Positions 1,705 through 58,513 of a DNA stretch of 64,000 nt are shown one piece after another. Location: assembly GCA_964649615.1 (NCBI GenBank), contig CAZYPW010000008.1, positions 574 through 64,573 of the forward strand. Direction: 5' to 3'. Position numbers and translations under genes: made by a program. Under the pieces are notes generated by a model that was given only the letters and a program-made list of their open reading frames with translations, was not told the origin of the DNA and did no database searches. This DNA is from an uncultured Gammaproteobacteria bacterium (GTDB lineage Bacteria; Patescibacteriota; Microgenomatia; Daviesbacterales; UBA10151). Within the stretch, counting starts at the first letter, position 1. Each line of letters opens with the position of its first letter.

Positions 1705-3396
1705 TTATGACTCAACAATGATCGGTAATACTAGCGGCCTCCTTTCTGTAGTTTGATAAAAAAATTTCTCTAAACAATCCTCTATTAGTTTTCTTAAAAA
1801 TCTCCAGTCTGTAATTTTGTGGGCATGTTTGTCTAAAGTTTCCTTTAAAATGGTTTTTGCTTCATCTAGTATCTCTCCTGCTGTCTCTTCATAAACAAAC
1901 CCCCTGGAAATAATATCAGGCTCTGCTGTTAATTTGCCAGTGTGGGGATCAATTTCTAAAACAGCAATCACAATCCCTTCCTCATTCATCTTCTGCCTAT
2001 CCCTCAATACCACATTGCCTACATCTCCAATTCCTAATCCATCCACATAGACATTTTGCACATCCAAAATTTCCCCTAATTTAATATTTTCTTTTTCTAG
2101 TGCCATGGTCTGCCCATCTTCTACTACTAAGACATGACTGCGCTGATATCCCATATCCTGGGACATCTTGGAAAAAACTCTCATATGTTTAAAAGTACCG
2201 CCTATGGGCAATAAATACTTTGGTTTAATCAAATTGATCATCAGCCTTAACTCCTCTTTGGCTGCGTGCCCAGAGACATGCAAATCTGAGGTAACAGCTG
2301 AATAATAAACATTTACCCCCAGCCTGGTTAAAGAATCAATTAAAGCATTTTGGGCAGATTCAGTGGAGGGAATAGGATCTGCTGAAAATAAGACTGCATC
2401 TCCTTCTTTTAATTTAATCTGTTTATGCTCCTCATTAGCTGCCCGGGATAGGGCAGAACCAGATTGGCCCTGGGATCCAGCAATAAGCACTAAGATTTTT
2501 TTAGGGGAATGACCTGCTATGGCCTCTGGAGTAATTACCAGCTGAGAGGGTATTCTCAAATACCCTAAATCCCGGGATATTTGAAAATTACTTTCAAAAG
2601 AACGCCCTGCTACTGCAATCTTCCTGCCAGTTTTTAAAGCCACATTGACAGCTTGCTGCATTCTGGAAACATTAGATGAAGTCATAGTGATTAACAGTTT
2701 GCCTTCAGTTTCCAAAGAGGCTTTTTCAAAAGTATCCTCAATAGATTTTTCTGATTTATTAAAGCCTTCCTTTTCTACTCTTAAGCAATCTAGCAGCAGT
2801 AAATCTACCCCTTCTTTGCCTAATCTGGCTACCTCTCCCACATCTGTCACCTGGCCTGAAACTGGAGTCCAATCAATCTTAAAATCAGCTTGATGAATAA
2901 CTAATCCTGCTGGAGTCTTAAGCACAATTCCGGTTGAATCAGGCACAGAATGGGAAACCTGGTAAAAAGAAACTTGAAACGCTCCTAAAGTAAGTTTTTG
3001 GTCTATTTTTGTTTCCATGATTTTATCTTTAGGTAAGTTGTGTTCGCTAAATTTATTTTTAATAAAAGCACAGGTTAATTTTTGGCTATAGATAGGAACC
3101 TGCAAAGTCGGCCAGATATAGGGAAGGCCCCCAATATGGTCATCATGGCCGTGAGTAATCAAGATTCCCCTAATTTTGTTTATTTTATCTTTTAGATAAG
3201 TAATGTCCGGGATCACCAAATCTACTCCTGGCGTGCCTTCATCTGGAAAACCTACTCCACAATCCACAATCACTATGTCCGAACCATACTCATAAACATA
3301 CATGTTTTTGGTTACATCACCCACCCCTCCTAAAGGAATTATTTTTAAACTCATGTCTTTATCTGATAAAAATTGTTTAGGTTTAAACATTTTCAT
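1705..3396 (-). CDS. rnj: Ribonuclease J (metallo-beta-lactamase/beta-CASP RNase)
   Basis: The HGHDDHIGG motif and overall beta-lactamase/beta-CASP architecture support the call. The track ORF begins at a TTG at 3414. A more likely start is the ATG at 3396 (MKMFKPK) or at 3354 (MSLKIIPLGG, the typical RNase J N-terminus). Confidence 0.85.
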   Translation of the reverse strand: MKMFKPKQFLSDKDMSLKIIPLGGVGDVTKNMYVYEYGSDIVIVDCGVGFPDEGTPGVDLVIPDITYLKDKINKIRGILITHGHDDHIGGLPYIWPTLQVPIYSQKLTCAFIKNKFSEHNLPKDKIMETKIDQKLTLGAFQVSFYQVSHSVPDSTGIVLKTPAGLVIHQADFKIDWTPVSGQVTDVGEVARLGKEGVDLLLLDCLRVEKEGFNKSEKSIEDTFEKASLETEGKLLITMTSSNVSRMQQAVNVALKTGRKIAVAGRSFESNFQISRDLGYLRIPSQLVITPEAIAGHSPKKILVLIAGSQGQSGSALSRAANEEHKQIKLKEGDAVLFSADPIPSTESAQNALIDSLTRLGVNVYYSAVTSDLHVSGHAAKEELRLMINLIKPKYLLPIGGTFKHMRVFSKMSQDMGYQRSHVLVVEDGQTMALEKENIKLGEILDVQNVYVDGLGIGDVGNVVLRDRQKMNEEGIVIAVLEIDPHTGKLTAEPDIISRGFVYEETAGEILDEAKTILKETLDKHAHKITDWRFLRKLIEDCLEKFFYQTTERRPLVLPIIVES

Positions 3397-3420
3397 AATA
3401 ATCTCAAAACTCAAATGTCA

Positions 3421-3500
3421 AAAGTCAAAACTACAATTAAAAACTTAAAAGTTTTAAGATTTAAGTTTCAGATTTGAGCTTTGAGTTTTGCGGTTTGAGT
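3421..3500. repeat. Imperfect long palindrome built from two inverted 7-nt-periodic arrays (ctcaaaa/gtcaaaa ... ttttaag/atttaag/tttcaga/tttgagc/tttgagt/tttgcgg/tttgagt)
   Basis: Read directly from the sequence between the Lon-like gene end and the rnj start. It is centred on aaaacttaaaagtttt. It belongs to the same heptamer family seen at 57814-57862. Confidence 0.5.
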
Positions 3501-4520
3501 TTATCCAGATAAGTATTCTCCCAAATTAGTAATTTCTATCTTAAATGGCCCTTTTTCCCCTTCCACCAACTTTCTGGCCACCTTTCTGCAAATTCCCTGC
3601 AAAGTTCTCTGCAAAGACCTAATCCCGCCGTCAAATCCTAAGGGCCTGATAATTTGCGGCCAGATGGTCTCATCTATTTTTAGCATACTTCTATCAATTC
3701 CTGCTTCATCCATCGCTTTGGGCAAAAGATAATTTTTGCCTATCACTACCTTTTCCTCATCAGAGTATGAAGGCATTTGAATAGGCTCCAACCGATCCAT
3801 CACAGCCGTGGCTATATTGGTAGTATTATTGGCTGTGGCAATGAATAATACCTGTGATAGATCATAAGGGAAATCTAAATAATGGTCAACAAAAGAATGA
3901 TTCTGGGCAGGATCCAAAAGTTCAACTAAGACTCCCATAATATCTACTCTATATTCTTGGGCCACTCTATCAATTTCATCAAGTAAAATAACTGGATTGG
4001 AAACTTTGGCAGATTGGAGAGCCTTGATAATTAGTCCTACTTCTACATCAGGCCTGGATCTTGACTGGCCTCGCAAAGTAGCTGGATCTCCCAATCCTCC
4101 AAAAGGAATTCTCACAATAGGCCTACCAAGACTTTCAGCAATAGAATAAGCAATAGAGGTTTTACCAGTACCCACCAAACCAATAAAAGCCAGTATGGGA
4201 GCATGAAAAACAGTGGCATTTTTTTGTTTATGCAAGGTTAAAACAGATAAATATTCTAAAATTCTATCTTTGACTGATTGCAAACCAAAGTGTTCTTTAT
4301 CCAAAATTTGTTTGGCCCTGTTAATATCTAAAATATCCTGGGCATATTTGCCAAAAGGGAGCGATAACACAAAATTAGCATAAGAAACTAGCCTTTCAAA
4401 TTCTATGCCAGTTCCTGGAAATTTTAATAAGTTAAGTAATTTTTCTTCTATCTCACCGGATAAATTAGCTTGGGAAATTTTTACTTTTAATTCTTCAACT
4501 GTTGTTTGGGCAGAATCCAT
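3501..4520 (-). CDS. Lon-like AAA+ ATPase lacking the C-terminal protease domain
   Basis: The ORF aligns to the LonA substrate-recognition and ATPase region. It has Walker A GLVGTGKTS, Walker B ILLDEIDRV and a sensor region ending ...GIRSLQRTLQGICRKV. It stops where the Lon protease domain would begin, with 86 nt of non-coding palindrome following. Confidence 0.6.
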   Translation of the reverse strand: MDSAQTTVEELKVKISQANLSGEIEEKLLNLLKFPGTGIEFERLVSYANFVLSLPFGKYAQDILDINRAKQILDKEHFGLQSVKDRILEYLSVLTLHKQKNATVFHAPILAFIGLVGTGKTSIAYSIAESLGRPIVRIPFGGLGDPATLRGQSRSRPDVEVGLIIKALQSAKVSNPVILLDEIDRVAQEYRVDIMGVLVELLDPAQNHSFVDHYLDFPYDLSQVLFIATANNTTNIATAVMDRLEPIQMPSYSDEEKVVIGKNYLLPKAMDEAGIDRSMLKIDETIWPQIIRPLGFDGGIRSLQRTLQGICRKVARKLVEGEKGPFKIEITNLGEYLSG

Positions 4521-9503: not shown

Positions 9504-10958
9504 TTATATTACTCTAAAACTTTCAACTACATCATTTACTGTAAAATCAACTGGAGGATCAAACAGCATGCCGCAATCGTTTCCTTTTTCCGCCTTATTA
9601 ACTTCTTCTTTAACCTTTTTTAAAGACTTTAGCTTGGTTTCCCCAATCTTTACTCCATCCCTTAAAATCCTTAATTTATGGCCTTTGGCAAGCTCACCTT
9701 CTATTACCCTGCATCCTGCAATCTTTTCTGTCTTGCCATGGGGAAACTGGGCAATAATATTAGCTTTACCTATTACCTCCTCAAGCTGCCCAACCTCAAG
9801 CAGAGTTTGGACCACATCTTCAATCTCTTCTATTAATTCATAAATAATATTGTAAGTTCTGATTAAAATATGGTCATTCTCAGCAATTTTTTGGGCAGAA
9901 GTAGTTACTTTGACATTAAAACCTACTACAATTGCTCCTACTGATGAGGCTAATCTAATATTATCCTCTCCAATATCTCCTATCCCGCTAAAGATAAAAT
10001 CAACTACTTTTCTTTCTTCATTAAATTTCTCTAAAGAAGCTTGTATTGCCTCTAGCGAACCCTGTTTATCTGCTTTAATAATGACCTTCAAGGTTTTACT
10101 ATCTCCTTGTTTTAACTTGTCCACCATACTTGATACTTGATACTTGATACTTGATACATCTCCTGGCTCTTCTCCTAATTTTGCTCCCACCAATGGCACT
10201 GCTTCCAATCCCAGTATTTCCACAGGAGTAGATGGTCCAGCCTGATCAACTGCTTTACTATTAAAATCAAACATTCCCCTAATCTTTCCTTTAATGCCTC
10301 CTAGTTGAATCTGATCCCCTTTCTTTAGTGTTCCATTTCTAATTAAAATTGTGGCAATTGGGCCTTTAAATTTATCTAATGTTGCCTCAATTACTACCCC
10401 AGCCACAGGAGCTTGTGGATCAGCTTTAATCTCATTTAGTTCAGCAACTAAAGTAACCATCTCTAAAAGCTTATCTACTCCCTCACCAGTTTTGGCAGAA
10501 AGAGGCACCAATGGCACATCTCCCCCATATTCTTCTGCTAAAATTTCCCTATCAGATAGTTGTTTTTTAATTTTCTCTAGCTGCACTTTGACATTCACAC
10601 CAGCTAGATCTACTTTGTTTATTGCCACAATTAAAGGAACTTTCGCTTCTTTAATGTGCTTGATAGCCTCATCTGTTTGAGGCATAATTCCATCATCTAC
10701 AGCCACCACCAAAACAGCTATATCAGCTACCTTGGCTCCCCTGGATCTCATTTTTTCAAAAGCAGCGTGTCCCGGGGTATCTATGAAAGTGATTAATTTA
10801 CCATCATGGGTAACTTGATATGCCCCAATATGTTGGGTAATGCCGCCATGTTCTTTGGTTGCCACGGAAGATTTGCGGATAAAATCTAATAGCGTAGTCT
10901 TGCCATGGTCAACATGGCCCAGGATCGTGACTATGGGAGGTCTAGTAACTTGGCTCAT
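9504..10958 (-). CDS. infB: Translation initiation factor IF-2, minimal form that starts at the G domain
   Basis: The GHVDHGKTTLLD and DTPGH motifs are followed by domain II and the C1/C2 domains. At 484 aa it lacks the usual N-terminal extension. Confidence 0.9.
   Translation of the reverse strand: MSQVTRPPIVTILGHVDHGKTTLLDFIRKSSVATKEHGGITQHIGAYQVTHDGKLITFIDTPGHAAFEKMRSRGAKVADIAVLVVAVDDGIMPQTDEAIKHIKEAKVPLIVAINKVDLAGVNVKVQLEKIKKQLSDREILAEEYGGDVPLVPLSAKTGEGVDKLLEMVTLVAELNEIKADPQAPVAGVVIEATLDKFKGPIATILIRNGTLKKGDQIQLGGIKGKIRGMFDFNSKAVDQAGPSTPVEILGLEAVPLVGAKLGEEPGDVSSIKYQVSSMVDKLKQGDSKTLKVIIKADKQGSLEAIQASLEKFNEERKVVDFIFSGIGDIGEDNIRLASSVGAIVVGFNVKVTTSAQKIAENDHILIRTYNIIYELIEEIEDVVQTLLEVGQLEEVIGKANIIAQFPHGKTEKIAGCRVIEGELAKGHKLRILRDGVKIGETKLKSLKKVKEEVNKAEKGNDCGMLFDPPVDFTVNDVVESFRVI
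10129..10156. repeat. (TTGATAC)x4 heptamer tandem array inside infB coding sequence
   Basis: Seen in sequence. It is read in frame on the coding strand as ...DVSSIKYQVSSM... Confidence 0.7.
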
Positions 10959-10994
10959 ACTTAATTCTTTTTACTCCTTTCAATTAAATGAGAA

Positions 10995-11081
10995 AGTATT
11001 AAGTATCAAGTAGTAAGTATTATGGGAAATAATAAATTTAAATCTTTCATACCCTTAATACATAATACTTAATACATACTA
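10995..11081. repeat. Inverted pair of heptamer arrays in the nusA-infB intergenic region
   Basis: agtatta/agtatca/agtagta/agtatta (10995-11022) faces cttaata/cataata/cttaata/catacta (11054-11081). Together they can fold as a long imperfect hairpin. Confidence 0.5.
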
Positions 11082-12263
11082 CTCATTCTTATCTTTTTCC
11101 ATATCAGCTTCTGCAGGTAAGGTTTTGGTATCATCTGCAGGTTTAGTTCCAGCTTGTGGTTCTTCCTTTTTTTCTCCAGTTCCCTCAGTTTTCACTTCAC
11201 CTTCACTTTTTACAGCTTCCTCTGCTTTTTTCCCAGCTACTTGCTGCTCACTACCTGCTACTGACTCCTCTTCTGCTCCAACAATATCAATCTTCCAGCC
11301 TGTTAATTTAGCAGCTAAACGAACATTTTGCCCTCCCTTGCCTATAGCCAAAGACATCTGATCTTGAGGAACAGTCACTGTGGCAATTTTGTCAGTTTCA
11401 TTCAAACTCACTTGTAAATCTTTAGCTGGTGACAGGGCTGCAGCAATAAACCTGGCAGGATCATCTGAATAGGTAATAATATCTATTTTTTCCTCACCCA
11501 ACTCAGACATCACAGCCTGAACTCTGACCCCTTTTTGGCCCACCAAAGATCCCACAGGATCTACTCCTTCTTGAGATGATTGAGCTGCAATTTTAGTCCT
11601 GGAGCCTACTTCTCTGGCAATGGCCCGCACCTCAACTGCCCCATTTTGAATTTCTGGCACCTCTAGCGCAAAAAGAGCTTTAACTAAAGCAGGATCTGAT
11701 CTGGAAACTACCACTTCAGAACCTCTCCCGCCTTCTCTGATCTCTTTGACTAAAAACTTCAATCTTTGGTTTTGATGATACATTTCTGTATGGACTTGTT
11801 CAGATGGAGGTAAAACTCCTTCAGCCCTGCCTAAATCTACAAAAAAAGTATTGCCTTCTTGCCTTTGGATATTTCCAGAGATAACTGTACCTAATTTGCC
11901 CTCATATTCAGATAAAATTGCCCCTCTTTCTGCTTCATTAAGCCTTTGCATAATCACTTGCTTGGCAATTGAGGCTGCAATTCTGGCAAAGCCAGGGGGG
12001 GTGACATTTTTCTTTTTATCAAAGATCTTAATCTCACCAGTGGCAGGATCTACCTCAGAGGTAAACTCTTCAATATCTTCAGGCACTACTTCATTTCTAA
12101 GCATTAAATCTTTTTTGTAGGCAGCTAAAGCTGCTGCTTTGATTGCTTCTGTCACCACTGATGGGTCTACCCCTTTTTCAGAGGCTATTTGATTTAATGC
12201 AGCTGCAAATTCTGTTCGTGCTTGTGCCAATCGGAGCGCCCCTTTCTTTGGCGCGAAATCCAC
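11079..12263 (-). CDS. nusA: Transcription termination/antitermination factor NusA with a K/E-rich C-terminal tail
   Basis: The NusA N-terminal domain, S1 domain and two KH domains (e.g. GSLVGQKGVRVQAV, LAIGKGGQNVRLAAKLTGWKIDI) are present. The start codon is a GTG at 12263. Confidence 0.85.
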   Translation of the reverse strand: MDFAPKKGALRLAQARTEFAAALNQIASEKGVDPSVVTEAIKAAALAAYKKDLMLRNEVVPEDIEEFTSEVDPATGEIKIFDKKKNVTPPGFARIAASIAKQVIMQRLNEAERGAILSEYEGKLGTVISGNIQRQEGNTFFVDLGRAEGVLPPSEQVHTEMYHQNQRLKFLVKEIREGGRGSEVVVSRSDPALVKALFALEVPEIQNGAVEVRAIAREVGSRTKIAAQSSQEGVDPVGSLVGQKGVRVQAVMSELGEEKIDIITYSDDPARFIAAALSPAKDLQVSLNETDKIATVTVPQDQMSLAIGKGGQNVRLAAKLTGWKIDIVGAEEESVAGSEQQVAGKKAEEAVKSEGEVKTEGTGEKKEEPQAGTKPADDTKTLPAEADMEKDKNE

Positions 12264-12448: not shown

Positions 12449-13372
12449 TTAGAACCAGCCTTTTTTCTTGTTGCTTAAATTATAAAGCTCCTCATATAAT
12501 TGTTTTTCCTGTTTAGATGGATTTTGCGGGACATTTAAATTTACCCTCACATAATGGTCTCCATGGCCAGTTTCACCTAATCTAGCTACACCTTTTCCTT
12601 TTAATTTAACCAAGGATCCTGGCTGGGTGCCTGGAGGAACTTTAACCTTCATCTTTCCCTGTACAGTATTAACTTCAAATATATCTCCCAAAACCAATTG
12701 GGGAATGTTAATGGTAATTTCAGAAAATATATCTGCTCCTTCTCTTAAAAATTCCTGATTTCTCTGTACTCCAAAAACAATATCTAAATCACCAAATTTC
12801 ATCTTAGTCCCATTATCAACTCCTGCCGGAACCTTAATCTTTAATCTTTTTCTCTCCAGCCTGCCAGATTGATTTCTGGATTCAATTTCCACCTCTTTTG
12901 TTACCCCTTTTATTGCCTCATCAAAGGATAAATTAAGCTGATAAGTTGGCCTTCTTCTCATTTGAGCTCCAAATCCACCCCCAAATATTTGTTCAAAAAG
13001 ATCAAATGGGTCTTCAAATCCGCCAAAATCGAATTGGACATTAGGGTTACCTCCTGATGAAGACCAGGAGTAAGTTCTAGCCCCACCTCCGAATGGATTA
13101 AACCCTCCTCCTGCAAAAGGATTACCACCATCGCCTCCGGCTCCTCTCTCAAAAGCAGCGTGGCCAAACTGGTCATAAGCACCCTTTTTTTGTGGATCAG
13201 ATAACACCTGATAGGCCTCCCCAAGTTCCTTAAACCTCACATCTGCACCGGCAGATTTATCTATATCAGGATGGTGCTGTCTTGCCAGTTTACGGTAAGC
13301 AGATTTTATTTCTGCCTCAGATGCTCCTTTTTTAACTCCAAGTATTTCGTAGTAATCACGCTTTGTAGCCAT
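12449..13372 (-). CDS. dnaJ: DnaJ-family co-chaperone (J domain, G/F-rich region and C-terminal domains, no Zn-finger; CbpA/type II-like)
   Basis: The J domain reads DYYEILGV...HHPD. A G/F-rich stretch follows and no CxxCxGxG repeats are present. Confidence 0.75.
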
Positions 13373-13957: not shown

Positions 13958-14389
13958 TCAGTTTTGTTTTTCCAAAAATTCATTAATGTTTCTAACAAAC
14001 TCTCTTAAATCATTCAGCCCAATACTAGCAGACTCGGCTAAGATGTTTAAATCTACATCAAGATACATATGCACCAAAATATTTCTAAGCCCGACAGCTT
14101 TCCCTAATTTTTCTGACAGACCTTTAGTAATAATGCCTTCTTTAACTAATAAGGGAAATAAATCCCTAGCATATTCAGGCATTCCAAGATTTAAACTAGA
14201 AACAATATGTTCTGCTACATTAATAACCATCTCTACGGCAACTTGCATACGATGTTTAGTCGCATCAGTAAAGATTAGATTTTCCTCTTCGTCTAAAGCC
14301 TCCCTAGTAACATGGCTATCCTCAATTATTTTAATTTCTCCTTCCAGGTAACGCAGAATATGATCAATAGTCTTTTTGTTAATAGCCAT
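13958..14389 (-). CDS. hepT: HepT-like HEPN-domain toxin (DUF86)
   Basis: The Rx4-6H HEPN motif GLRNILVHMY is present. It overlaps the upstream MNT gene by 11 nt. Confidence 0.7.
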   Translation of the reverse strand: MAINKKTIDHILRYLEGEIKIIEDSHVTREALDEEENLIFTDATKHRMQVAVEMVINVAEHIVSSLNLGMPEYARDLFPLLVKEGIITKGLSEKLGKAVGLRNILVHMYLDVDLNILAESASIGLNDLREFVRNINEFLEKQN

Positions 14390-14801
14390 AAGTTCCCCCT
14401 CTAATTCTTTTTTTCATATAATCATAATCTATATCCCGTAGCCTTTGTGTATCATAAAACTCTCTCATAATAGCTACTTCAAACTCAATCCTCTTTGTTT
14501 CATCTTTACTGTAAATATTTTCCCCCTGGATTACATTCATTAAAAATACCGGCGATTCTTTTAAACTTATCCCTCTCACCTCTGGCTCTGCTTTAACACT
14601 TATTTTTGGAAATTCTGAATATAATCTTCCTAATCTACTATAAAGGTCAACTTTCCCGTCAAATAGCACAGCAATATCAAGATCACTTCCTTTATGGGGG
14701 TTTCCAGAGGCAAAAGAGCCATACAAATAGACTGCCACTACATCTTTTTGAGTGGCAAAGTAATCCTGAATTTTTTTAATATCAGCTTCACTTAATTTCA
14801 T
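14379..14801 (-). CDS. mntA: MntA-like minimal nucleotidyltransferase antitoxin
   Basis: The GS-x9-DxD nucleotidyltransferase motif YLYGSFASGNPHKGSDLDIAVL is present. Pairing with the HEPN protein fits a type VII HepT/MntA module. Confidence 0.7.
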   Translation of the reverse strand: MKLSEADIKKIQDYFATQKDVVAVYLYGSFASGNPHKGSDLDIAVLFDGKVDLYSRLGRLYSEFPKISVKAEPEVRGISLKESPVFLMNVIQGENIYSKDETKRIEFEVAIMREFYDTQRLRDIDYDYMKKRIRGGTYGY

Positions 14802-17264: not shown

Positions 17265-17779
17265 ATATTTTCTCCTTCTTTGTCCGCCGAAGCTGCAACG
17301 GAGGTGGATCTTCCTACCACCACTTGAGCTGGTCTTACAACCTTCCCATTTAGATTATACCCTTTTCTGACAACTTTTAAAATTATATTATCTTCCCCCT
17401 CCTGTATGTCAACAGCTTCATGAAGGCTAGGATCAAATTGTCCGTCTGCTACAATTTCCTCCAACCCTTCAGATTTCAAGACCTCTTTAAACTGCTTTAC
17501 AGCTAACTCTACTCCTTGAAACCAGCCCTTCGACTCACTTTGTTCGCTCAGGGTGGATCGACCAAGATCAACCACCTGTTCTAAATGATCTAAAACTGGT
17601 AACAATCTTTTAACCAATTCTGCTCCCATAAAATTAGTTAACTCTGATCTACCTTCTGAAACTCTTTTCTCCAAATTTTGATAATCAGCCACTGCCCTTT
17701 TTAACTGGTTTTCCAGATCTGCCACTCGTTGTTCTAAATCACTTTTCACTTTTAACTTTTCACTTTTAACTTTATTCAT
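17261..17779 (-). CDS. grpE: Nucleotide exchange factor GrpE
   Basis: The coiled-coil N-terminus and GrpE C-terminal domain match. Its position between hrcA and dnaK also fits. Confidence 0.85.
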
Positions 17780-21907: not shown

Positions 21908-23785
21908 TTATGATTTTAGAATGCTTAAAAAAGCTTCCTGGGGAATCTCTACTCTACCCACCATTTTCATTTTCTTTTTTCCCTTTTTCTGTTTTTCCAA
22001 AAGCTTATCCTTGCGGGTTCTATCTCCGCCATATAATTTGGCTGTGACATCTTTTCTAAATGGAGAGATTGATTCTCTGGCTATAATAGTTCCACCTATA
22101 GCTGCTTGAACGGCTATCATAAAATTTTGCCTGGGTAAAACTTCTTTTAATTTCTCAACAATTTTTCTGCCATAACTTTCAGCTTTTGATTTAAAAACAA
22201 TTTGAGACAGCGCATCTACTTTTTCCCCTGCCACTAAAATATCTACTCTAACTGCTTCCACTTCCCTAAATTCTAAAAATTCCCAATCAAGGGAGGCAAA
22301 CCCAGATGAAACTGATTTTAACTTATCATAAAAATCAGTCACCATTTCAGAAAGAGGCATTTGATAAGAAAGTTCAACCTGCAGCCCAAAATGCTGCATA
22401 TTTAAAAACCGACCCCTTTTATCTTGTACCAAATCCATTGCTGGACCAATATAGGTTTGGGGGATGAATATTTTTAAAACTACCCAAGGCTCTTTAATGC
22501 TTTTCATATTCATGGGATCAATTTCTGATGGGTTATGGACCATCAGCCCATTAATTTCATACTCCACAAAGGGAATAGTAGCAATCAAATCTACATTAAA
22601 TTCCCCTGATAACCTTTCCTGCACTACCTCTGCATGAAGCAATCCTAAAAATCCACACCTAAACCCATTTCCCAAAGCCTGTGAGGATTCTAGCTCATAA
22701 GTGAAAGCGGGATCATTTAACCTAAATTTTTCTAAAGCTTCTTTAGCATCTATATAATCTTCTTGATCTATAGGAAAAAGCCCTACAAACACCATTGGCT
22801 TAACTTCTTTGTATCCAGGCAATGGTTGTATATCGTTTTTGTCTTCCGATATTCGATGACCGATGTTCGATAAACTTGTTATTGTATCTCCTACCCTAAC
22901 TAAATCTGACTGCTTGATTCCAGTGGCTATATAACCTATCTCTCCACTTTTCAATCTATCATTGACAGTCAGTTGTGGGGCAAAAAAACCTGTTTCTAAA
23001 ATATGTCCCTCCGACTTAGTCTGTAAAAAAGAAATTTTGCTGTTAACGCTTGGTGTAATACCTTCCACTATTCTAACCTGGGCTATCACCCCTTTGAAGC
23101 TGTCAAAAAAAGAATCAAAAATTAAAGCTTTAAGAGGTTTTTCTATTTCCTGTTTTGGAGCTGGAATTTTAGTAACAATTGCCTCCAATAGTTTATCCAC
23201 CCCAACTCCTGTTTTTCCGGAAACCAGGAGTATCTCCATATCATTAAATCCAAAAGATTCTATTAATTGTTTTTTAACATTTGCCACATCGGCATTCGGG
23301 AGATCTATTTTGTTCACAACCGGAATTAATGTTAAATTTTGCTCCATGGCAGCTAAACCATGAGCTAAGGTTTGAGCTTGTACTCCTTGTGTTGCATCTA
23401 CCAAAAGTATCGCTCCTTCCACTGCTGCCATTGCCCGGGACACTTCGTAGCTAAAATCAACATGGCCTGGAGTATCTATCAGATTCAAAATATATTCTGA
23501 ATCTACAAACTCTAAATTCGAAGCACGAAATTCGAAATTGTTTTTGTCGTTTAGATTTTGATCATTGGAATTTGTTTCGGATTTAGGATTTCGATATTCG
23601 TATTTTAATCTAACAGGGGCAAGTTTGATAGTAATGCCCCGCTCACGCTCTAATGCCAAACTATCTAAAAGCTGAGGCTGCATCTTATCTTTGGGAACAG
23701 TGCCTGTAATTTCAATAAGTCTATCTGCTAATGTAGACTTTCCGTGATCTATATGCGCTATAATTGTCACGTTACGAATATTCAT
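21908..23785 (-). CDS. lepA: Elongation factor 4 (LepA) with a low-complexity insertion in the G domain
   Basis: AHIDHGKSTLADRL and DTPGHVDF motifs and the LepA C-terminal domain are present. A roughly 33-aa insert (SETNSNDQNLNDKNNFEFRASNLEFVDSE) lies between G1 and G3. Confidence 0.9.
   Translation of the reverse strand: MNIRNVTIIAHIDHGKSTLADRLIEITGTVPKDKMQPQLLDSLALERERGITIKLAPVRLKYEYRNPKSETNSNDQNLNDKNNFEFRASNLEFVDSEYILNLIDTPGHVDFSYEVSRAMAAVEGAILLVDATQGVQAQTLAHGLAAMEQNLTLIPVVNKIDLPNADVANVKKQLIESFGFNDMEILLVSGKTGVGVDKLLEAIVTKIPAPKQEIEKPLKALIFDSFFDSFKGVIAQVRIVEGITPSVNSKISFLQTKSEGHILETGFFAPQLTVNDRLKSGEIGYIATGIKQSDLVRVGDTITSLSNIGHRISEDKNDIQPLPGYKEVKPMVFVGLFPIDQEDYIDAKEALEKFRLNDPAFTYELESSQALGNGFRCGFLGLLHAEVVQERLSGEFNVDLIATIPFVEYEINGLMVHNPSEIDPMNMKSIKEPWVVLKIFIPQTYIGPAMDLVQDKRGRFLNMQHFGLQVELSYQMPLSEMVTDFYDKLKSVSSGFASLDWEFLEFREVEAVRVDILVAGEKVDALSQIVFKSKAESYGRKIVEKLKEVLPRQNFMIAVQAAIGGTIIARESISPFRKDVTAKLYGGDRTRKDKLLEKQKKGKKKMKMVGRVEIPQEAFLSILKS
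22845..22872. repeat. (TYCGATR)x4 heptamer array inside lepA
   Basis: tccgata/ttcgatg/accgatg/ttcgata. It encodes ...NIGHRISEDKN..., an extra loop. Confidence 0.6.
23514..23610. repeat. Roughly 14-unit degenerate heptamer array forming the LepA G-domain insertion
   Basis: aaattcg/aagcacg/aaattcg/aaattgt/ttttgtc/... ending .../taggatt/tcgatat/tcgtatt. The 7-nt periodicity runs across about 98 nt. Confidence 0.55.
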
Positions 23786-26922: not shown

Positions 26923-27093
26923 ATGACAACCAAAAAAGAGTGGCTGATTGCTACCATCTTAACTTTTATCACAGTTTGCGCTTGGGTTATATTTGATATA
27001 TTGCATACCCGTTCCCAGGTGGAAATACCGCCTAATTTACAACAGGTTATTGAACCAATTAATCCCAATTTTGAAACGGCAGTTTTTGAATGA
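26923..27093 (+). CDS. 56-aa single-TM micro-protein
   Basis: MTTKKEWLIATILTFITVCAWVIFDIL... It is translationally coupled to both neighbours (ATGA overlap at 27090). It is absent from the ORF track because it is under 60 aa. Confidence 0.3.
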   Translation: MTTKKEWLIATILTFITVCAWVIFDILHTRSQVEIPPNLQQVIEPINPNFETAVFE

Positions 27094-28040
27094 AAATTAT
27101 ATTACAAAAATTTTCTAAATTTAGGATCCCTACCTTCTTAGGTTTAGGGATCATCTTAGCCGGAATTATCACCGGAGTTTTCTTAATCTTAAAAGACCAG
27201 CAGCCATTTTTTGCCAAAGCTGATCTTAATTTTAAACCTGAACCAATTGTTACTAATATTTTAAGTGATTCTGTTACTATTTCATTTAAAACTGAAGCCT
27301 CTATCCCTGCTTTTATTAACTATGGAATTAATTCCATAGAAGAAAACGGAACCCGTGATGATAGAGATACTGATAAACCTCCTGCGCCGCGACAAATTCA
27401 TTATTTTACCATTAAAAATTTACAACCTGATACAGCTTACCAATATAGGGTTACTGTTGGAAAGAGTAAATTTGAAATACAACCTCCTTTTAAAACTGCT
27501 AAGGCAGAAACGCTACAGAATGGCTTCAACCCCATTATTGGAACTGTTTTATCAGGTAATACCCCTTTAAATGAAGGTCTTGTTTATCTTACTATAGCTA
27601 ACGCCAAACCCCAGTCAGCTTTAGTGAAAAATAACGGCAATTTTTTGATTCCTCTTACCTTTATCCGAAAAGAGGATTTATCAGATGTTTTAGTACCTGA
27701 AGATAAAACTCCTGCTAAATTAACTATTATCTCTGCCGAGGGGGAAGCCATGGTTTTACTCCCTTTAAAAGCTGATAGTGATATTCTTGATGCTATACGA
27801 TTAGGTGATAAACTAGACCTGACTGACCCCAACCCATCACCTACCCCAGACATTTCACCAAAAGAAATCATAACTTTTGATTTAAATGGTGATGGTCAAA
27901 TAAATGCAGCAGACAATGCCATCATTTTAAAAAATTTTGGCAATAATCCAAGTAATAAAAAGGCTGATTTAGATGGTAATGGAAAAGTAGATAATGAAGA
28001 TTTAAAAATAATGGCTGAAAAAATCAGTGAGCAAAATTAA
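27090..28040 (+). CDS. Membrane-anchored protein with an FN3-like domain and two C-terminal dockerin-type Ca-binding repeats
   Basis: An N-terminal TM helix is followed by an FN3/purple-acid-phosphatase-N-like region (DTAYQYRV). The C-terminus has DLNGDGQINAADNAIILKNF and DLDGNGKVDNEDLKIM repeats. Confidence 0.5.
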   Translation: MKIILQKFSKFRIPTFLGLGIILAGIITGVFLILKDQQPFFAKADLNFKPEPIVTNILSDSVTISFKTEASIPAFINYGINSIEENGTRDDRDTDKPPAPRQIHYFTIKNLQPDTAYQYRVTVGKSKFEIQPPFKTAKAETLQNGFNPIIGTVLSGNTPLNEGLVYLTIANAKPQSALVKNNGNFLIPLTFIRKEDLSDVLVPEDKTPAKLTIISAEGEAMVLLPLKADSDILDAIRLGDKLDLTDPNPSPTPDISPKEIITFDLNGDGQINAADNAIILKNFGNNPSNKKADLDGNGKVDNEDLKIMAEKISEQN

Positions 28041-30920: not shown

Positions 30921-32822
30921 ATGCCCTCTACTTCGACTACTCTCAGTACTAATAGTCTTCTGGATGATCTAAACCCACAGCAACAATTAGCAGTAAAACA
31001 AATTGAAGGGCCTGTTTTAATCTTGGCTGGAGCAGGATCTGGTAAAACCAGAGCTTTAACTTATCGTGTGGCTTATTTAATTAAAGAAAAAAAAGTTGCT
31101 CCGGAAAATATCCTGGTAATGACTTTTACAAATAAGGCCGCTGGTGAAATGATTGACCGAATTCTCAAACTCCTCAACTACAACCTACAACCTATAACCT
31201 ATAACCTACCCATGATGGGCACTTTTCATTCTTTTTGCGCCAGAGTCTTAAGGCGTGATGGCAAAGAACTAGGACTGCCCCCAGGATTTGCTATCTACGA
31301 TGAGTCTGATGCGCTAGATGCTATCAAAGAAGCAATGGGAAATCTTAATATTCCTACCCAAAAAACTTCTCCCTCTGCTGTCAGAAATACTATCTCTTCT
31401 GCAAAAAATGAGCTGATCTCTTCTTTGGAGTATCCAAGATATGCCAGAGGTTATTTTCAGGGAATAGTGGCCAAAATATATCTTGAATATCAAAAGATTT
31501 TAGAGAAAAATTATGCTTTGGATTTTGATGATCTATTGCTTTATACTATCAAACTTTTCCAAACATCTCCTGCTATCTTAACCCGTTATCAAATTAAGTT
31601 CCAATATATCTTAATAGATGAATATCAAGATACAAACCCTGCTCAATATTTAATTTCTAAGTATTTGGCAAACCGCCATAAAAATATTTGTGTAGTTGGG
31701 GATGCTGCACAATCGATTTACTCATTTCGGGGAGCAGATTTTAGAAATATTGTTAATTTTGAAAAAGACTATTCGAATTGCAAAATTTTTAATCTGGAAC
31801 AAAACTACAGATCTACTCAAAATATTTTAGATGCAGCTACTTCTGTTATTTCTAAAAATAAATCTCATCCTATTTTGAAGCTCTGGACAGAAAAAAAGCA
31901 GGGAGAAAAAATAGAAATAGTGGAAGTTAGAAATGAGGTTGAAGAGGCCTTATTTATCATTAACCACCTCCGAGGTGAAAAAATGCGCTTACACCTCGGA
32001 GGTGTAGCCGTACTTTATAGAACAAATGCCCAATCCAGATCTTTGGAAGAACAATTTTTAAAATCAGGCGTGCCTTATAAATTAGTCGGCGGGGTAAGTT
32101 TTTATCAAAGAAAAGAAATTAAAGATGTGCTTTCGTACTTGCGGCTTATGCAAAATCCTAAGGACTCAGTTTCTATAAAAAGAGCAGAAAAGATTGGCAA
32201 AGGCAGGCTGGCAAAACTAATGGAACTTTATGCAGAAATATCTGTAAATTTGGATCAATATTCTACCTTAGAACTGTTGGACAAAATTTTAGAAAAAACA
32301 GGTTATTTAGCTTACCTTGATGATAGCACAGAGGAGGGAAAAGGAAGAGTGGAAAATGTTAAGGAGCTAAGATCTGTAGCTGAGGAATTTCCTAATTTGG
32401 TAGACTTTTTAGAAAACGTGGCTTTAGTAGAAAATGGATCTAATCCCCGTAAAAAAGAGGACCAGGATGCAGTCACTTTAATGACTCTGCATTCTGCTAA
32501 AGGATTAGAATTTCCTACTATTTTTATAGTAGGCATGGAGGAAGGATTATTCCCACACTCCAGAGCAATGCTTGATATGAACGAGCTAGAGGAGGAAAGA
32601 AGGCTTTGTTATGTAGGTATCACCCGTGCTAAAGAAAAATTATTTTTAACTTATACTAGAAACAGGCTTTATTTTGGCCAAAGAAGTAATAATTTAGTCT
32701 CTCGCTTTTTAGCAGATATACCAGAGCAATTAATTATCTCCAATAGCAAATTCCAAGATCAGGATCAATTTCTAGATGATGTCAGTACTAGTTATGATAG
32801 TGAAGATTGGCTAAAGGTTTAA
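30921..32822 (+). CDS. pcrA: UvrD/PcrA-family ATP-dependent DNA helicase
   Basis: Walker A AGAGSGKTRAL, DEYQDTN, and the later helicase motifs including VGITRAK are present. Confidence 0.85.
   Translation: MPSTSTTLSTNSLLDDLNPQQQLAVKQIEGPVLILAGAGSGKTRALTYRVAYLIKEKKVAPENILVMTFTNKAAGEMIDRILKLLNYNLQPITYNLPMMGTFHSFCARVLRRDGKELGLPPGFAIYDESDALDAIKEAMGNLNIPTQKTSPSAVRNTISSAKNELISSLEYPRYARGYFQGIVAKIYLEYQKILEKNYALDFDDLLLYTIKLFQTSPAILTRYQIKFQYILIDEYQDTNPAQYLISKYLANRHKNICVVGDAAQSIYSFRGADFRNIVNFEKDYSNCKIFNLEQNYRSTQNILDAATSVISKNKSHPILKLWTEKKQGEKIEIVEVRNEVEEALFIINHLRGEKMRLHLGGVAVLYRTNAQSRSLEEQFLKSGVPYKLVGGVSFYQRKEIKDVLSYLRLMQNPKDSVSIKRAEKIGKGRLAKLMELYAEISVNLDQYSTLELLDKILEKTGYLAYLDDSTEEGKGRVENVKELRSVAEEFPNLVDFLENVALVENGSNPRKKEDQDAVTLMTLHSAKGLEFPTIFIVGMEEGLFPHSRAMLDMNELEEERRLCYVGITRAKEKLFLTYTRNRLYFGQRSNNLVSRFLADIPEQLIISNSKFQDQDQFLDDVSTSYDSEDWLKV
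31179..31213. repeat. Heptamer tandem array (ctacaac x2, ctataac x2, ctaccca) inside the pcrA-like gene
   Basis: Seen in sequence. It encodes the LNYNLQPITYNLP insertion between helicase motifs I and Ia. Confidence 0.7.
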
Positions 32823-34279: not shown

Positions 34280-35287
34280 ATGGATTTACGGCCAATTACT
34301 GACAAACAAAAATCCCAATATAACAAACTGGTTACCCATGTTATCCAGTCCTGGGAATGGGGGAAATTTCGCAAAAGTTTGGGGATACCAGTTGTAAGAT
34401 ATGGATTATACAAAAATGACAAATTATCAAAAGCATTCCAGCTAACCTTACACAAAATTCCATTCACAGACAAATTTGTAGGTTACCTGCCAAAAGGCCC
34501 GTTCCCGAATAAAGATTTGGCAGGGACTCTTGAAAAAATTGGCAAAGAATATCATTGTGCTTTTATAAAACTTGAACCGAATGTAGAGGTTACAGGTAAT
34601 AGGTTACAGGTTACAGGAAACCTCATTAAATCTCCTAAACCACTTTTTACAAAATACAACTTCGTACTAGATCTGACAAAATCCGAGGAGGAACTTTTAA
34701 AAAATATGCACCCTAAAACCAGATACAATATTAAAGTAGCTCAAAAACATGGAGTTAAAGTAGAAGAAAGAGTAGATGATGAAGCTTTCAAAATTTATTT
34801 AAAATTATATTTTGAGACAACTAAACGCCAGGGTTATCATGGCCATAATGAAAACTACCACAGAAAAGTTTGGGAAACTTTGAAAAAAGAAAATATGGCT
34901 ACCTTATTAATAGCCACCCTAAAAAGTGCGCCTCTAACTGCCTGGATGCTGCTCAAATTTAGGGATACTCTATACTATCCATACGGTGGTTCATCGCTTG
35001 CCCATAGAGAAGCTATGGCCAATAATTTAGTAGCCTGGGAGGCTATAAAATTAGGCAAAAAAATGGGCCTTAAAAAATTTGATATGTGGGGAGCATTGAG
35101 TTCTGATGCCAACCCTCAAGATCCCTGGTTCGGATTCCATAAATTCAAACAAGGTTATGGTGGAAAATTAGTTGAGTATATCGGCACATATGATTTAGTT
35201 TTCAACTGGCCAATTTACATCTTGTTTACAGCTATTGACAAATTGACTCCTTTAAAAATTGCCCTCCTGAAATTGCTAAAAAAGTAA
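34280..35287 (+). CDS. FemAB-family peptidoglycan interpeptide-bridge aminoacyltransferase
   Basis: A FemX/MurM-like GNAT-pair architecture of about 335 aa with conserved ...KTRYNIK...KRQGYHG... regions. Confidence 0.7.
   Translation: MDLRPITDKQKSQYNKLVTHVIQSWEWGKFRKSLGIPVVRYGLYKNDKLSKAFQLTLHKIPFTDKFVGYLPKGPFPNKDLAGTLEKIGKEYHCAFIKLEPNVEVTGNRLQVTGNLIKSPKPLFTKYNFVLDLTKSEEELLKNMHPKTRYNIKVAQKHGVKVEERVDDEAFKIYLKLYFETTKRQGYHGHNENYHRKVWETLKKENMATLLIATLKSAPLTAWMLLKFRDTLYYPYGGSSLAHREAMANNLVAWEAIKLGKKMGLKKFDMWGALSSDANPQDPWFGFHKFKQGYGGKLVEYIGTYDLVFNWPIYILFTAIDKLTPLKIALLKLLKK
34583..34617. repeat. Heptamer tandem array (gtagagg/ttacagg/taatagg/ttacagg/ttacagg) inside the femAB-family gene
   Basis: Seen in sequence. 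It encodes VEVTGNRLQVTGNL. It is the same TTRYAGG unit family as the pcrA array, in the opposite orientation. Confidence 0.7.
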
Positions 35288-55351: not shown

Positions 55352-55398
55352 TAAAAGTATTGTACTATACCCTAAACCCTATACACTATTCCCTAATT

Positions 55399-57652: not shown

Positions 57653-58513
57653 TCAAGCCCTGCTAATTTTTTGTTTGTAGAGCTTTAAAATGTTAGGTCT
57701 GATATCTAAAGGGTGGAGGTACAAAGCCCCTTCTTGTATCCGTTCCATACCTTCTGGCTTTTTCATAATTTTTAGCTGTATCCACCTTGCTATCTTTTCT
57801 AATAAGTCAAAAGTTTTGAGATTTGATTTGTAGGTTTGAGATTTGCGTTTTGAGATTTGCGTTTTTTCTCCAATCCAATTTGGTAAAAACTTAAAAGCCC
57901 AACTGTTATCAGACAAATACTTGGTATAAATTCCCTCCCTTTGCCAAAGAAGCTTCATTTGCAAAACTTCATGGGCAGTATATAGATCTTTAAACAATTG
58001 CTCCAAATGGTCTTCATCCAAAATAGTATTCAAACAAAATTTTCCCCGGGCATCTTTAAAACTCATCCCGACTTTTCTTCTTACTCCAAAAAAATCTAGA
58101 ATAAATATGACCAGCATCCGGGATAACCAAAGCCTGTTTTTATCAGTAATTAAAAACAAATCTATATCATCACGTTTTTCACTATTCTCAAGGGCTAATC
58201 CACCTGAAATTCCCACTAATTTTACCCAGGGAATAATTTTAAGAAATTGACCAAATATTTTTGCTTTTTTAAAATAAATTTCTGATTGCTTTTCTCTTCT
58301 TTTTCTTTTTAAAACCAGTTGTTTATGGTTCTTCAAAAAATAAAAGTCCCCGGAGTTACCAATTTTTCTTTTTTTAAAAAGTCTGGTTAATGCTTTTTCT
58401 ACTTGCCAGAAAGTGGCTTGTTTTCCAATCAGCCATTTATGAATTTCGTAGGCTTTCATTGGAAACAAAAAAATATTGGCATAAATTAATGTTTTTAAAA
58501 CCGCCTTTTCCAT
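57653..58513 (-). CDS. Hypothetical protein with a nucleotidyltransferase-fold signature (GISGGLA...DDIDLFLI) carrying an internal heptamer array
   Basis: The GS-x(n)-DxD pattern is present. The array at 57814-57862 (ttttgag/atttgat/ttgtagg/tttgaga/tttgcgt/tttgaga/tttgcgt) encodes a K/S/Q-rich segment. Confidence 0.35.
   Translation of the reverse strand: MEKAVLKTLIYANIFLFPMKAYEIHKWLIGKQATFWQVEKALTRLFKKRKIGNSGDFYFLKNHKQLVLKRKRREKQSEIYFKKAKIFGQFLKIIPWVKLVGISGGLALENSEKRDDIDLFLITDKNRLWLSRMLVIFILDFFGVRRKVGMSFKDARGKFCLNTILDEDHLEQLFKDLYTAHEVLQMKLLWQREGIYTKYLSDNSWAFKFLPNWIGEKTQISKRKSQTYKSNLKTFDLLEKIARWIQLKIMKKPEGMERIQEGALYLHPLDIRPNILKLYKQKISRA

What the first reader, a model, noticed from the sequence alone, without database searches (positions are those of the whole stretch)
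10129..10156. Genome-wide family of 7-nt-periodic tandem arrays embedded in frame in essential genes and as inverted pairs in intergenic DNA
Seen in sequence, inside coding genes:
- (TTGATAC)x4 inside infB (10129-10156);
- ctacaac/ctataac x5 inside the pcrA-like gene (31179-31213);
- ttacagg/taatagg x5 inside the femAB-family gene (34583-34617), the same TTRYAGG unit in opposite orientation;
- (TYCGATR)x4 (22845-22872) and a roughly 14-unit array (23514-23610) inside lepA;
- a tttgaga/tttgcgt array inside the gene at 57814-57862.
In intergenic DNA, inverted pairs of the same kind of array form the palindromes at 3421-3500 and 10995-11081. A run of 4-5 heptamers is never a multiple of 3, yet every host ORF stays open. 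So the arrays are tolerated or selected as low-complexity peptide loops, and slippage by one unit would frameshift the gene. This looks like a lineage-specific minisatellite or repeat-insertion process. I do not know of it being described.
Basis: seen in the sequence. Interest (0 to 1): 0.7.

Follow-up and report, generated by a model that had tools for sequence, protein, structure and literature searches.

The report
Heptanucleotide repeat arrays in a Daviesbacterium
This uncultured groundwater bacterium (Candidatus Daviesbacteria) and its relatives carry many short tandem arrays of 7-base units, mostly as hairpins between genes and sometimes as extra loops in housekeeping proteins. The excess is real, but it is a new instance of the 7-base repeat excess already described in other bacteria.

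Summary
In the window, period-7 arrays are the only enriched repeat class: 8 arrays against 0 in shuffles. The same is true in 80 related Daviesbacteria loci: 63 arrays, against 14 or fewer for any non-harmonic period. An E. coli control has none.

About 65% of arrays lie in the roughly 11% of DNA that is non-coding. Typically a 5'-(AAGNNNN)n arm starts at a stop codon and an inverted (NNNNCTT)n arm follows, forming a stable hairpin that is conserved across species.

A minority sit in genes. They are always in variable linkers, surface loops or termini, nearly always with the AAG strand as sense.
- The infB array is young and replaces a linker of equal length.
- The LepA and PcrA arrays are old insertions shared by subclades.

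Relatives show unit gain and loss with frame-restoring 1-nt indels.

The most likely mechanism is replication slippage with a 7-nt step, followed by selection. Unit sharing between sites in one genome suggests some copying as well.

Heptanucleotide repeat excess is already described: Mrázek 2007, cyanobacterial STRR, Xanthomonas GGGAATC and Beggiatoaceae TAACTGA. I found no report of it for CPR bacteria. Phase variation is not supported. Verdict: a new member of a known kind, of moderate interest.

The parts
10126..10157 (-). Perfect (GTATCAA) x4.6 array inside infB. It encodes VSSIKYQVSSM in the linker between the EF-G_D2 and IF-2 domains.
   Evidence: Relatives have an unrelated linker of equal length at this position. 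The unit is the same as in the palindrome about 0.85 kb away.
10995..11083 (-). nusA-infB intergenic hairpin. The 5' arm (AGTATKW)n starts at the nusA stop codon. The loop carries TATGAAA. The 3' arm is (CTTRATA)n, followed by the infB Shine-Dalgarno sequence.
   Evidence: 32-nt arms, 81% complementary. (-32.3 kcal/mol, z = -5.8); conserved in relatives at 0.7-0.94 identity, while infB third codon positions are only 0.45-0.52 identical.
3398..3504 (-). Intergenic hairpin between the AAA/Lon-lid gene and the RNase J gene. It is made of (ACTCAAA)n and (TTTGAGT)n arms.
   Evidence: 53-nt arms, 75% complementary. (z = -6.2). L002 carries an AAGTATT-type palindrome at the orthologous site.
17739..17773 (-). 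(AAAAGTK) x5 array directly after the hrcA stop codon. It is translated as the GrpE N-terminus, [12 protein letters not shown].
   Evidence: The GrpE N-terminus varies in length among relatives.
22846..22873 (-). Weak (YCGATRN) x4 array in LepA, corresponding to a roughly 9-11 aa loop insertion (aa 305-314).
   Evidence: This is insertion hot spot 3; 9 of 120 relatives carry inserts here.
23501..23590 (-). Degenerate inverted pair of heptamer arrays. It forms a roughly 28-aa insertion (aa 66-95) in the beta-hairpin before the DTPGH motif of the LepA G domain.
   Evidence: gap against PDB LepA. (arms 74-76% complementary). (period-7 match fraction 0.49). (the same insert, diverged, in P0126, P0162, P0134 and others).
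31178..31209 (+). (CTACAAC/CTATAAC) x4.6 array in PcrA. It encodes NYNLQPITYNLP, a 5-aa net insertion.
   Evidence: an insert with the same Y-x-L-x-P pattern is shared by about 20 of 120 relatives.
34587..34617 (+). (AGGTTAC/AGGTAAT) x4.4 array in the FemAB-family gene. It is related to the PcrA unit but in the opposite orientation.
   Evidence: 17 of 19 nt match to the PcrA array on the opposite strand.
55365..55395 (-). (CTATACC) x4.4 array immediately downstream of the GroEL stop codon.
57815..57865 (-). (TTTGAGA/TTTGCGT) array inside the hypothetical 286-aa gene (aa 217-233). It has the same double unit as the hairpin arm at 3466-3502.
   Evidence: (21 of 23 nt match to 3400-3422).

Best explanation
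These are heptanucleotide simple-sequence repeats. They arise and are remodelled in place by strand slippage with a preferred 7-nt step during replication or repair. Selection then sorts them.

Shown:
- Period 7 is the only enriched period, already at the level of two-copy duplications.
- Orthologous arrays differ between relatives by whole units plus 1-nt frame-restoring indels.
- Arrays range from perfect, young ones to degenerate, old ones.
- Most arrays lie between co-directional genes. An AAG-type arm starts at the upstream stop codon and an inverted CTT-type arm follows, forming a stable hairpin. This hairpin is far better conserved than synonymous sites.
- Inside genes, arrays survive only where the net length change is a multiple of 3, the AAG (A-rich) strand is the sense strand so the peptide is hydrophilic (K/S/E/Q/N-rich), and the site is a linker, surface loop or terminus.

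Inferred:
- The 7-nt step reflects a property of the replisome (the Mrázek hypothesis).
- The second arm of a hairpin arises by intrastrand template switching or by selection for pairing.
- The hairpins act at the RNA level within operons, in processing, stability or attenuation.
For: - Period-7 excess in the window, in 80 relatives and inside genes (19 against 0.2). E. coli control: 0.
- Exact two-copy tandem duplications are enriched only at k = 7: 206 against 70.6.
- In-place dynamics. The infB linker of L048 has (GAGTCAA) x4 where L051 has 3 units plus 1 nt, a 6-nt gap. The L048 G-domain array (AAAAGTC) x5 is perfect where the L051 ortholog is degenerate.
- The same infB linker carries independent arrays in the window, L048 and L051, a degenerate version in L005, and a period-8 array in L024.
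- 73 of 113 arrays are non-coding or at gene edges, although about 89% of the DNA is coding.
- Position and orientation rules. The sense strand is the AAG strand in 15 genic arrays against 1.
- Genic arrays map to gaps or variable segments against solved structures and orthologs.
- Hairpin folding z-scores are about -6. Hairpin identity is 0.7-0.94 where third codon positions are about 0.5.
- Literature: heptanucleotides are the commonest long SSR class in SSR-rich prokaryotes, and a polymerase-slippage explanation has been proposed.
Against: - Pure local slippage does not explain why arrays at different sites of one genome share units more often than arrays of different genomes: 19.7% against 7.9% within 1 mismatch, permutation p about 0.003.
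- It also does not explain shared blocks. The 17-mer CAGGCAACAGGCAACAG occurs in both dnaK and infB of L061. A roughly 30-nt block occurs at three sites in L053. An AAGTATT-type palindrome occurs at two loci in L002.
- There is a loose unit consensus, AAGWWTY: 4.7 bits against 3.86 +/- 0.12 for random intergenic heptamers.
- The reason for a 7-nt step is untested.
- No conspecific strains were found, so present-day copy-number polymorphism could not be observed.
- Strong conservation of some arrays argues that they are not highly unstable.
Confidence: 0.6

Rival explanations
1. The arrays, and especially the inverted pairs, are copies of small mobile or copied elements. These could be REPIN/MITE/RPE-like, or spread by templated insertion. 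They would spread between sites within a genome and occasionally land in frame in genes.
For: - Within-genome unit sharing and block identity between unlinked sites.
- L002 carries the same palindrome type at two loci, while the window has a different unit at one of them.
- Within the window, the infB array matches the nearby palindrome unit, and the array at 57835-57857 matches the hairpin arm at 3400-3422.
- The LepA insert is itself a degenerate inverted pair.
- Relatives carry GC-rich palindromic inserts at the same LepA and infB hot spots.
- Rickettsia palindromic elements are a precedent for in-frame palindromic inserts.
Against: - No transposase, RAYT or reverse transcriptase gene is in the window.
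- No defined termini or target duplications were seen.
- Units differ between subclades at the same orthologous site, and units look seeded from local sequence.
- Copy number changes in place.
- There are 71 distinct canonical units among 113 arrays.
Confidence: 0.2
2. The arrays exist because they are functional cis-elements: heptamer-spaced binding sites or structured RNA that regulate the downstream or upstream cistron, as proposed for TAACTGA repeats. On this view selection, not mutation bias, explains their abundance.
For: - Fixed placement at stop codons or just before start codons.
- Strong conservation of the nusA-infB hairpin, including its loop.
- Stable folds and a unit consensus.
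- Analogy with MacGregor 2015.
Against: - This does not explain arrays inside coding regions, or the two-copy excess at k = 7 everywhere.
- Units vary widely between lineages at one site.
- The hairpins were not called as intrinsic terminators by the consensus scan.
- No candidate binding protein was identified.
Confidence: 0.3
3. The genic arrays are contingency loci. Slippage by one unit switches infB, lepA, pcrA and the others off and on (phase variation).
For: The unit length is not a multiple of 3, and the infB array is perfect.
Against: - The hosts are single-copy housekeeping genes.
- The arrays are short, 4-5 units.
- The LepA and PcrA arrays are old, degenerate and conserved as peptides across subclades.
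- Every ortholog examined is intact.
Confidence: 0.03
4. The arrays are a chance product of AT-rich composition, or an assembly artefact of one MAG.
For: The DNA is low in GC (34-43%).
Against: - Shuffles give about 0.
- The excess recurs in 80 MAGs from many projects and assemblers and in unrelated metagenome contigs.
Confidence: 0.01

Closest known systems
Long simple-sequence repeats with heptanucleotide units in prokaryotes (Mrázek, Guo & Shah 2007, PNAS; as summarised in PMC4679880 and PMC4692102)
   Same: Tandem 7-nt units are the dominant long-SSR class. They are mostly intergenic and phylogenetically scattered, and are attributed to polymerase slippage with a roughly 7-nt contact length.
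   Different: - The host here is a CPR/Patescibacteria lineage that I did not find mentioned in that literature.
- The units are AT-rich with an AAG bias.
- Many arrays are organised as conserved hairpins.
- A visible fraction is fixed in frame in housekeeping proteins.
Cyanobacterial STRR heptamers (Mazel et al. 1990) and GGGGAYT repeats of Nostoc / GGGAATC repeats of Xanthomonas (Rehm et al. 2015, PMC4692102)
   Same: Lineage-typical heptamer arrays in intergenic DNA. Some occur as inverted pairs able to form stem-loops. Length varies between close relatives.
   Different: - The units differ. No tandem CCCCAGT, TTGGTCA, CAACAGT, GGGAATC or GGGGATT occurs in the window.
- There is no G-quadruplex potential.
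- The phylum is different.
TAACTGA direct repeats of marine Beggiatoaceae, Cyanobacteria and Bacteroidetes (MacGregor 2015, PMC4679880)
   Same: Heptamer arrays lie between a stop codon and the next start codon. One orientation gives stop codons in all three frames. A few arrays lie inside ORFs, mostly at protein ends.
   Different: - There, a single unit dominates. Here there are many units with only a loose consensus.
- Here inverted pairs are common, and insertions occur in internal loops of conserved enzymes.
Rickettsia palindromic elements (RPE; reviewed in PMC10969869)
   Same: Palindromic repeat DNA is inserted in frame into conserved genes at positions compatible with the protein fold. 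The LepA aa 66-95 insert and the palindromic inserts in relatives' LepA and IF2 behave this way.
   Different: - RPEs are 100-150 bp multi-copy families with a conserved sequence and encoded peptide.
- The inserts here are shorter, are built of heptamer units, and differ in sequence between sites.
REP/REPIN elements mobilised by RAYT transposases (Bertels & Rainey 2011, PMC3116915)
   Same: Inverted pairs of short repeats form hairpins in intergenic DNA, with genome-specific sequences.
   Different: - The arms are not internally 7-nt periodic in REPINs.
- No RAYT was seen here.
- The copy families are not near-identical.

Membership tests
Heptanucleotide long SSRs (Mrázek 2007 sense) | Head-to-tail repeats of a 7-nt unit, longer than chance allows | tested here: met
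   TRF. 8 arrays against 0 in shuffles. 19 genic arrays against 0.2.
Heptanucleotide long SSRs (Mrázek 2007 sense) | Period 7 over-represented relative to other unit lengths across the genome or lineage | tested here: met
   63 period-7 arrays, against 14 or fewer for any other period except the harmonic at 14 (38), in 1.28 Mb of relatives. Only 64 kb of this genome itself was available.
Heptanucleotide long SSRs (Mrázek 2007 sense) | Copy number varies between related genomes (slippage) | tested here: met
   L048 against L051: 4 units against 3. Perfect against degenerate orthologous arrays. Not testable within the species, because no conspecific sequence was found.
Cyanobacterial STRR | Units CCCCAGT, TTGGTCA or CAACAGT in heterocystous cyanobacteria | tested here: not met
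   No tandem copy of these units in the window. The host is Candidatus Daviesbacteria.
TAACTGA repeat system | Unit TAACTGA dominating the arrays | tested here: not met
   None in the window. One relative (L069 14995-15024) has two CTGATAA units, which are a rotation of TAACTGA.
REPIN/RAYT | Many near-identical copies per genome, plus a RAYT gene | tested here: inconclusive
   No RAYT or transposase in the window. There is unit sharing between sites but no near-identical copies. The whole genome was not available.
Rickettsia palindromic elements | Multi-copy 100-150 bp palindromic family with a conserved peptide, inserted in frame | tested here: not met
   The LepA insert is in frame and weakly palindromic. 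It has no other copy in the window and does not fold stably.
Phase-variable contingency loci | On/off frameshift alleles of a dispensable (often surface) gene among strains | tested here: not met
   The hosts are housekeeping genes. The arrays are conserved as peptides across subclades. All orthologs are intact. Strain-level variation could not be tested.

The most novel reading that the evidence does not exclude
Daviesbacteria may possess a dedicated process that writes or copies heptamer arrays. Candidates are a templated-insertion activity or a REPIN-like mobilising activity with a genome-specific unit. Such a process would explain three things: why unlinked sites in one genome share units and even whole blocks, why units carry an AAG signature on the sense strand, and why the resulting hairpins are conserved operon-internal RNA elements. 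The same process would also repeatedly remodel loops of essential translation and replication proteins.
Probability: 0.12. Interest if true: 0.75.

Novelty: new member of a known kind. Interest (0 to 1): 0.4.

Why it matters
Why heptanucleotide repeats are the favoured long SSR in many bacteria has been an open puzzle since 2007. Daviesbacteria have genomes of about 1 Mb with small replication and repair gene sets, and hundreds of MAGs are available. That makes them a compact system for asking which polymerase or repair features go with the 7-nt step.

The data also show how such repeats feed protein evolution. The same few loops of IF2, LepA and PcrA repeatedly accept array-derived or palindrome-derived segments that then persist for long periods.

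There are two practical consequences:
- The arrays explain many odd low-complexity inserts and length differences in CPR protein alignments.
- The conserved intergenic hairpins are candidate regulatory or processing elements.

Tried and rejected
- Rfam and tRNA scans found nothing.
- The promoter/terminator consensus scan did not call the hairpins.
- A search for conspecific infB alleles with a variable-gap pattern in metagenomes gave 0 hits. The closest infB protein anywhere is 83% identical. Present-day copy-number polymorphism therefore could not be tested.
- The idea that the infB array is an insertion was rejected after aligning 77 relatives.
- The idea that ATGAAA in the hairpin loop starts a conserved small ORF or an ancestral infB start was dropped. 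Its frame relative to infB is not consistent among relatives.
- Stable folding of the LepA insert and of the infB array was tested and is absent.
- Some 21-22 nt 'arrays' in conserved segments are two-copy matches with no length change against orthologs. Examples are RNase J 3251-3271, DnaJ 12829-12850 and LepA LLEKQKKGKKKMKMVG. They are not counted as insertions.
- Mrázek 2007 itself is not in the held library. Its content is cited through two papers that summarise it.
Full report
**Source and context.** The window is part of contig JACOXE010000004.1 of assembly GCA_016176385.1, a groundwater MAG labelled Candidatus Daviesbacteria (Microgenomates, CPR/Patescibacteria). The 80 closest infB loci in the species-level genome collection are almost all Daviesbacteria or Patescibacteria MAGs from many independent projects. 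The window (34-43% GC) carries ordinary housekeeping genes:
- RNase J, an AAA/Lon-lid protein, PNPase and S15;
- a short 484-aa IF2, NusA, DnaJ, DnaK, GrpE and HrcA;
- LepA, MurJ, PcrA, a FemAB-family protein, an AddA-like helicase-nuclease, MetRS, GroEL and MurB.

No transposase, RAYT or reverse transcriptase gene is present.

**Checking the observation.** The focal array is exactly as described: (CTTGATA) x4.6 on the + strand at 10126-10157, 100% pure. On the coding strand it reads (GTATCAA)n and encodes VSSIKYQVSSM, aa 268-278 of IF2, between the EF-G_D2 and IF-2 domains. TRF also recovers:
- the PcrA array (31178-31209) and the FemAB array (34587-34617);
- the array at 57815-57865;
- both intergenic palindromes;

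The two LepA arrays are weaker. 22846-22873 appears only as a period-14 match. The 'about 14-unit' array is a degenerate stretch whose period-7 match fraction is 0.49, against a window mean of 0.27 +/- 0.05.

The excess is not due to composition:
- With a 21-nt frame and at least 17 matches, the window has 8 period-7 arrays against 0.0 in 30 shuffles. No other period stands out.
- Across 1.28 Mb from 80 relatives there are 63 period-7 arrays, against 14 or fewer for any other period except the harmonic at 14.
- Inside genes there are 19, against 0.2 after codon shuffling.
- 50 kb of E. coli around its own nusA-infB operon has none.
- Exact two-copy duplications are already enriched only at k = 7: 206 against 70.6.

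**Where the arrays are.** Of 113 arrays found with a looser threshold, 49 are intergenic and 24 straddle a gene end. Only 40 are fully genic, although about 89% of the DNA is coding. Nearly all non-genic arrays lie between co-directional genes. Arrays whose sense strand reads AAGNNNN begin at or over the upstream stop codon (-17 to +7 nt). Arrays reading NNNNCTT lie 35-70 nt further on, next to the downstream start.

Together the two arms form hairpins. In the window these are at 3398-3504 and 10995-11083, with RNA folding z-scores of -6.2 and -5.8. A hairpin sits between nusA and infB in most relatives. In some it is short. In others both arms are extended by heptamers whose unit differs by subclade: AAGTATT, AAGAATT, AGTAGTA or TTTAAGA. 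Among species that share the AAGTATT type, most hairpin pairs are 0.7-0.94 identical (those involving L026 are lower), while infB third codon positions are only 0.45-0.52 identical. These non-coding arrays are therefore constrained, not hypermutable.

**What the genic arrays are.** The infB array is not a net insertion. 77 relatives have an unrelated, variable linker of almost the same length, for example ELAEVKEAEAIQSL. The closest relative (83% identity) has EEPKNETDLLNEQKQSL. In solved IF2 structures this is the connector between G3 and C1.

The same linker carries independent arrays in other species: (GAGTCAA) x4 in L048, three units in L051, a degenerate version in L005, and a period-8 (GAGTCAAA) x4 in L024. 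All appear seeded from a local GAAGAGTCA. L048 and L051 (81% nucleotide identity) differ there by a 6-nt gap, that is one unit minus one base. Their G-domain arrays are perfect in one genome and degenerate in the other.

LepA aligns end to end with solved LepA structures apart from two gaps that coincide with the arrays, at aa 66-95 and around aa 305-314. Among 120 Daviesbacteria LepA proteins the modal length is 584-586 aa, against 625 here. Length variation is confined to a few hot spots. The window's 28-aa insert is shared in diverged form by several relatives, so it is old. At the DNA level it is a degenerate inverted pair of arrays that no longer folds.

PcrA carries a 5-aa net insertion relative to 1PJR. 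It is shared as a Y-x-L-x-P pattern by about 20 of 120 relatives.

Relatives have independent array insertions in the equivalent beta-hairpin of the IF2 G domain and at the termini of GrpE, DnaK and NusA. In 15 of 16 scorable genic arrays the AAG strand is the sense strand, giving K/S/E/Q-rich peptides.

**Are the units arbitrary?** No. After optimal rotation and strand choice the units show a loose consensus, A-G-W-W-T-Y-A, preceded by the A that ends the previous unit. Its information content is 4.7 bits, against 3.86 +/- 0.12 for random intergenic heptamers. Close unit pairs are about fourfold over-represented.

Arrays at different sites of one genome also share units more often than arrays of different genomes: 19.7% against 7.9% within one mismatch, permutation p about 0.003. 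Examples:
- In the window, the infB array matches the nusA-infB palindrome, the array at 57835-57857 matches the hairpin arm at 3400-3422, and the PcrA array matches the FemAB array.
- In L002, the same AAGTATT palindrome type occurs at both the nusA-infB and the AAA-RNase J sites, whereas the window uses ACTCAAA units at the latter.
- In L061, the 17-mer CAGGCAACAGGCAACAG occurs in both dnaK and infB. In L053, a roughly 30-nt block occurs at three sites.

So local slippage is not the whole story. Some copying between sites, or a genome-specific unit preference, also operates.

**Mechanism.** The best-supported account has four steps:
1. 7-nt tandem duplications arise and expand or contract by slippage.
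2. In intergenic hairpins both arms acquire units, by template switching or by selection for pairing (inferred).
3. Selection removes almost all genic events. It leaves those with a net 3n length in loops, linkers and termini, with a hydrophilic reading frame.
4. Arrays then decay by point mutation or are retained as peptide or RNA features.

Why the step is 7 nt is not tested here. The only published idea is that it reflects the length of DNA contacted by the polymerase. Phase variation is not supported, because the hosts are housekeeping genes and the LepA and PcrA arrays are ancient. A mobile-element or templated-copying component remains possible at about 0.2. A primarily functional origin of the intergenic hairpins is compatible with their conservation, but it does not explain the genic arrays.

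**Comparison with what is known.** Over-representation of heptanucleotide long SSRs in many prokaryotes was reported in 2007 and attributed to slippage. Lineage-typical heptamers are known from:
- cyanobacteria (STRR; Mazel 1990);
- Xanthomonas and Nostoc (GGGAATC and GGGGAYT, including inverted pairs);
- Beggiatoaceae, Cyanobacteria and Bacteroidetes (TAACTGA, placed between stop and start codons and occasionally inside ORFs near protein ends).

None of those units occurs in tandem here. In-frame palindromic inserts have a precedent in Rickettsia palindromic elements.

Full-text searches combining CPR/Patescibacteria with heptamer or SSR terms returned nothing relevant. The 80 contigs analysed span 30-70% GC, and many carry further heptamer arrays (171 period-7 arrays in the 80 contigs). 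At least a few are CPR-like. The phenomenon is therefore widespread.

**Verdict.** This is a new, well-documented member of a known kind, heptanucleotide SSRs. Its notable local features are AAG-biased units, conserved stop-codon-anchored hairpins, recurrent in-frame fixation in the same loops of IF2, LepA and PcrA, and unexplained sharing of units between sites. Interest is moderate (0.4).

Noticed in passing
window 10985-11095 and L002-L081 just upstream of infB: A hairpin spanning the nusA stop codon and preceding the infB Shine-Dalgarno sequence is present in most Daviesbacteria. The loop motif TA(A/G)TATG(A/G)AA is conserved even where the arm sequences differ. The hairpin is much better conserved than synonymous sites, so it is a candidate operon-internal regulatory or processing element.
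   Followed up: partly
relatives' LepA (P0154, P0187, P0190, P0205, P0209) and L024 infB G domain: GC-rich palindromic inserts are translated in frame at the same loop hot spots as the heptamer arrays. The peptides look like VIPNEVRNL..., NVIPANAGIQ...LDPRLRGDD and ...GIASSLKTPRNDE. In L024 the DNA reads ...CCCGAGAGAGCGAAGCGAATCGAGGGATCCCTCGACAAGCTCGGGATGA... This looks like a second, REP/RPE-like class of insert in CPR proteins.
   Followed up: partly
relatives' LepA after query aa ~213: About 25 of 120 relatives have a recurrent insert of the form PK-SAGVNLIHPKGGS / SRGVATVPPPRW. It is absent from the window's LepA and of unknown origin.
   Followed up: no
L024 infB linker: A perfect period-8 array, (GAGTCAAA) x4, sits at the same site where L048 has the period-7 array (GAGTCAA) x4. 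The slippage step is therefore not strictly 7 nt.
   Followed up: no
window 9504-10958: IF2 is only 484 aa. It begins directly at the G domain and lacks the N-terminal domains. Its G3-C1 connector is shorter than in solved IF2 structures.
   Followed up: no
window ~13958-14801 (- strand; L001 6158-7001): A nucleotidyltransferase (NTP_transf_2/Polbeta) plus HepT-like (HEPN) gene pair, resembling a toxin-antitoxin module, is inserted between dnaK and dnaJ.
   Followed up: no
L069 14995-15024: An array with CTGATAA units, a rotation of the TAACTGA heptamer known from Beggiatoaceae and Cyanobacteria, occurs in a Daviesbacteria-like contig.
   Followed up: no
L086-L165 (metagenome contigs): Arrays of (AAGTATC)n, up to 119 nt long, occur in at least 120 metagenome contigs. 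The 80 contigs analysed span 30-70% GC. Several carry 6-11 further heptamer arrays (L103, L133, L151, L121, L095). Their taxonomy was not determined, except for weak CPR-like protein matches in a few.
   Followed up: partly
window 39503-43601 and 36123-37064: An AddA-like UvrD/PD-(D/E)XK helicase-nuclease (986 aa) lies next to a DUF2130 protein. Nearby is a Fic/DOC protein with a C-terminal HTH domain.
   Followed up: no
window 27090-28040: A secreted-looking protein combines a purple-acid-phosphatase N-terminal domain with a type I dockerin domain, which is unusual for a CPR genome.
   Followed up: no
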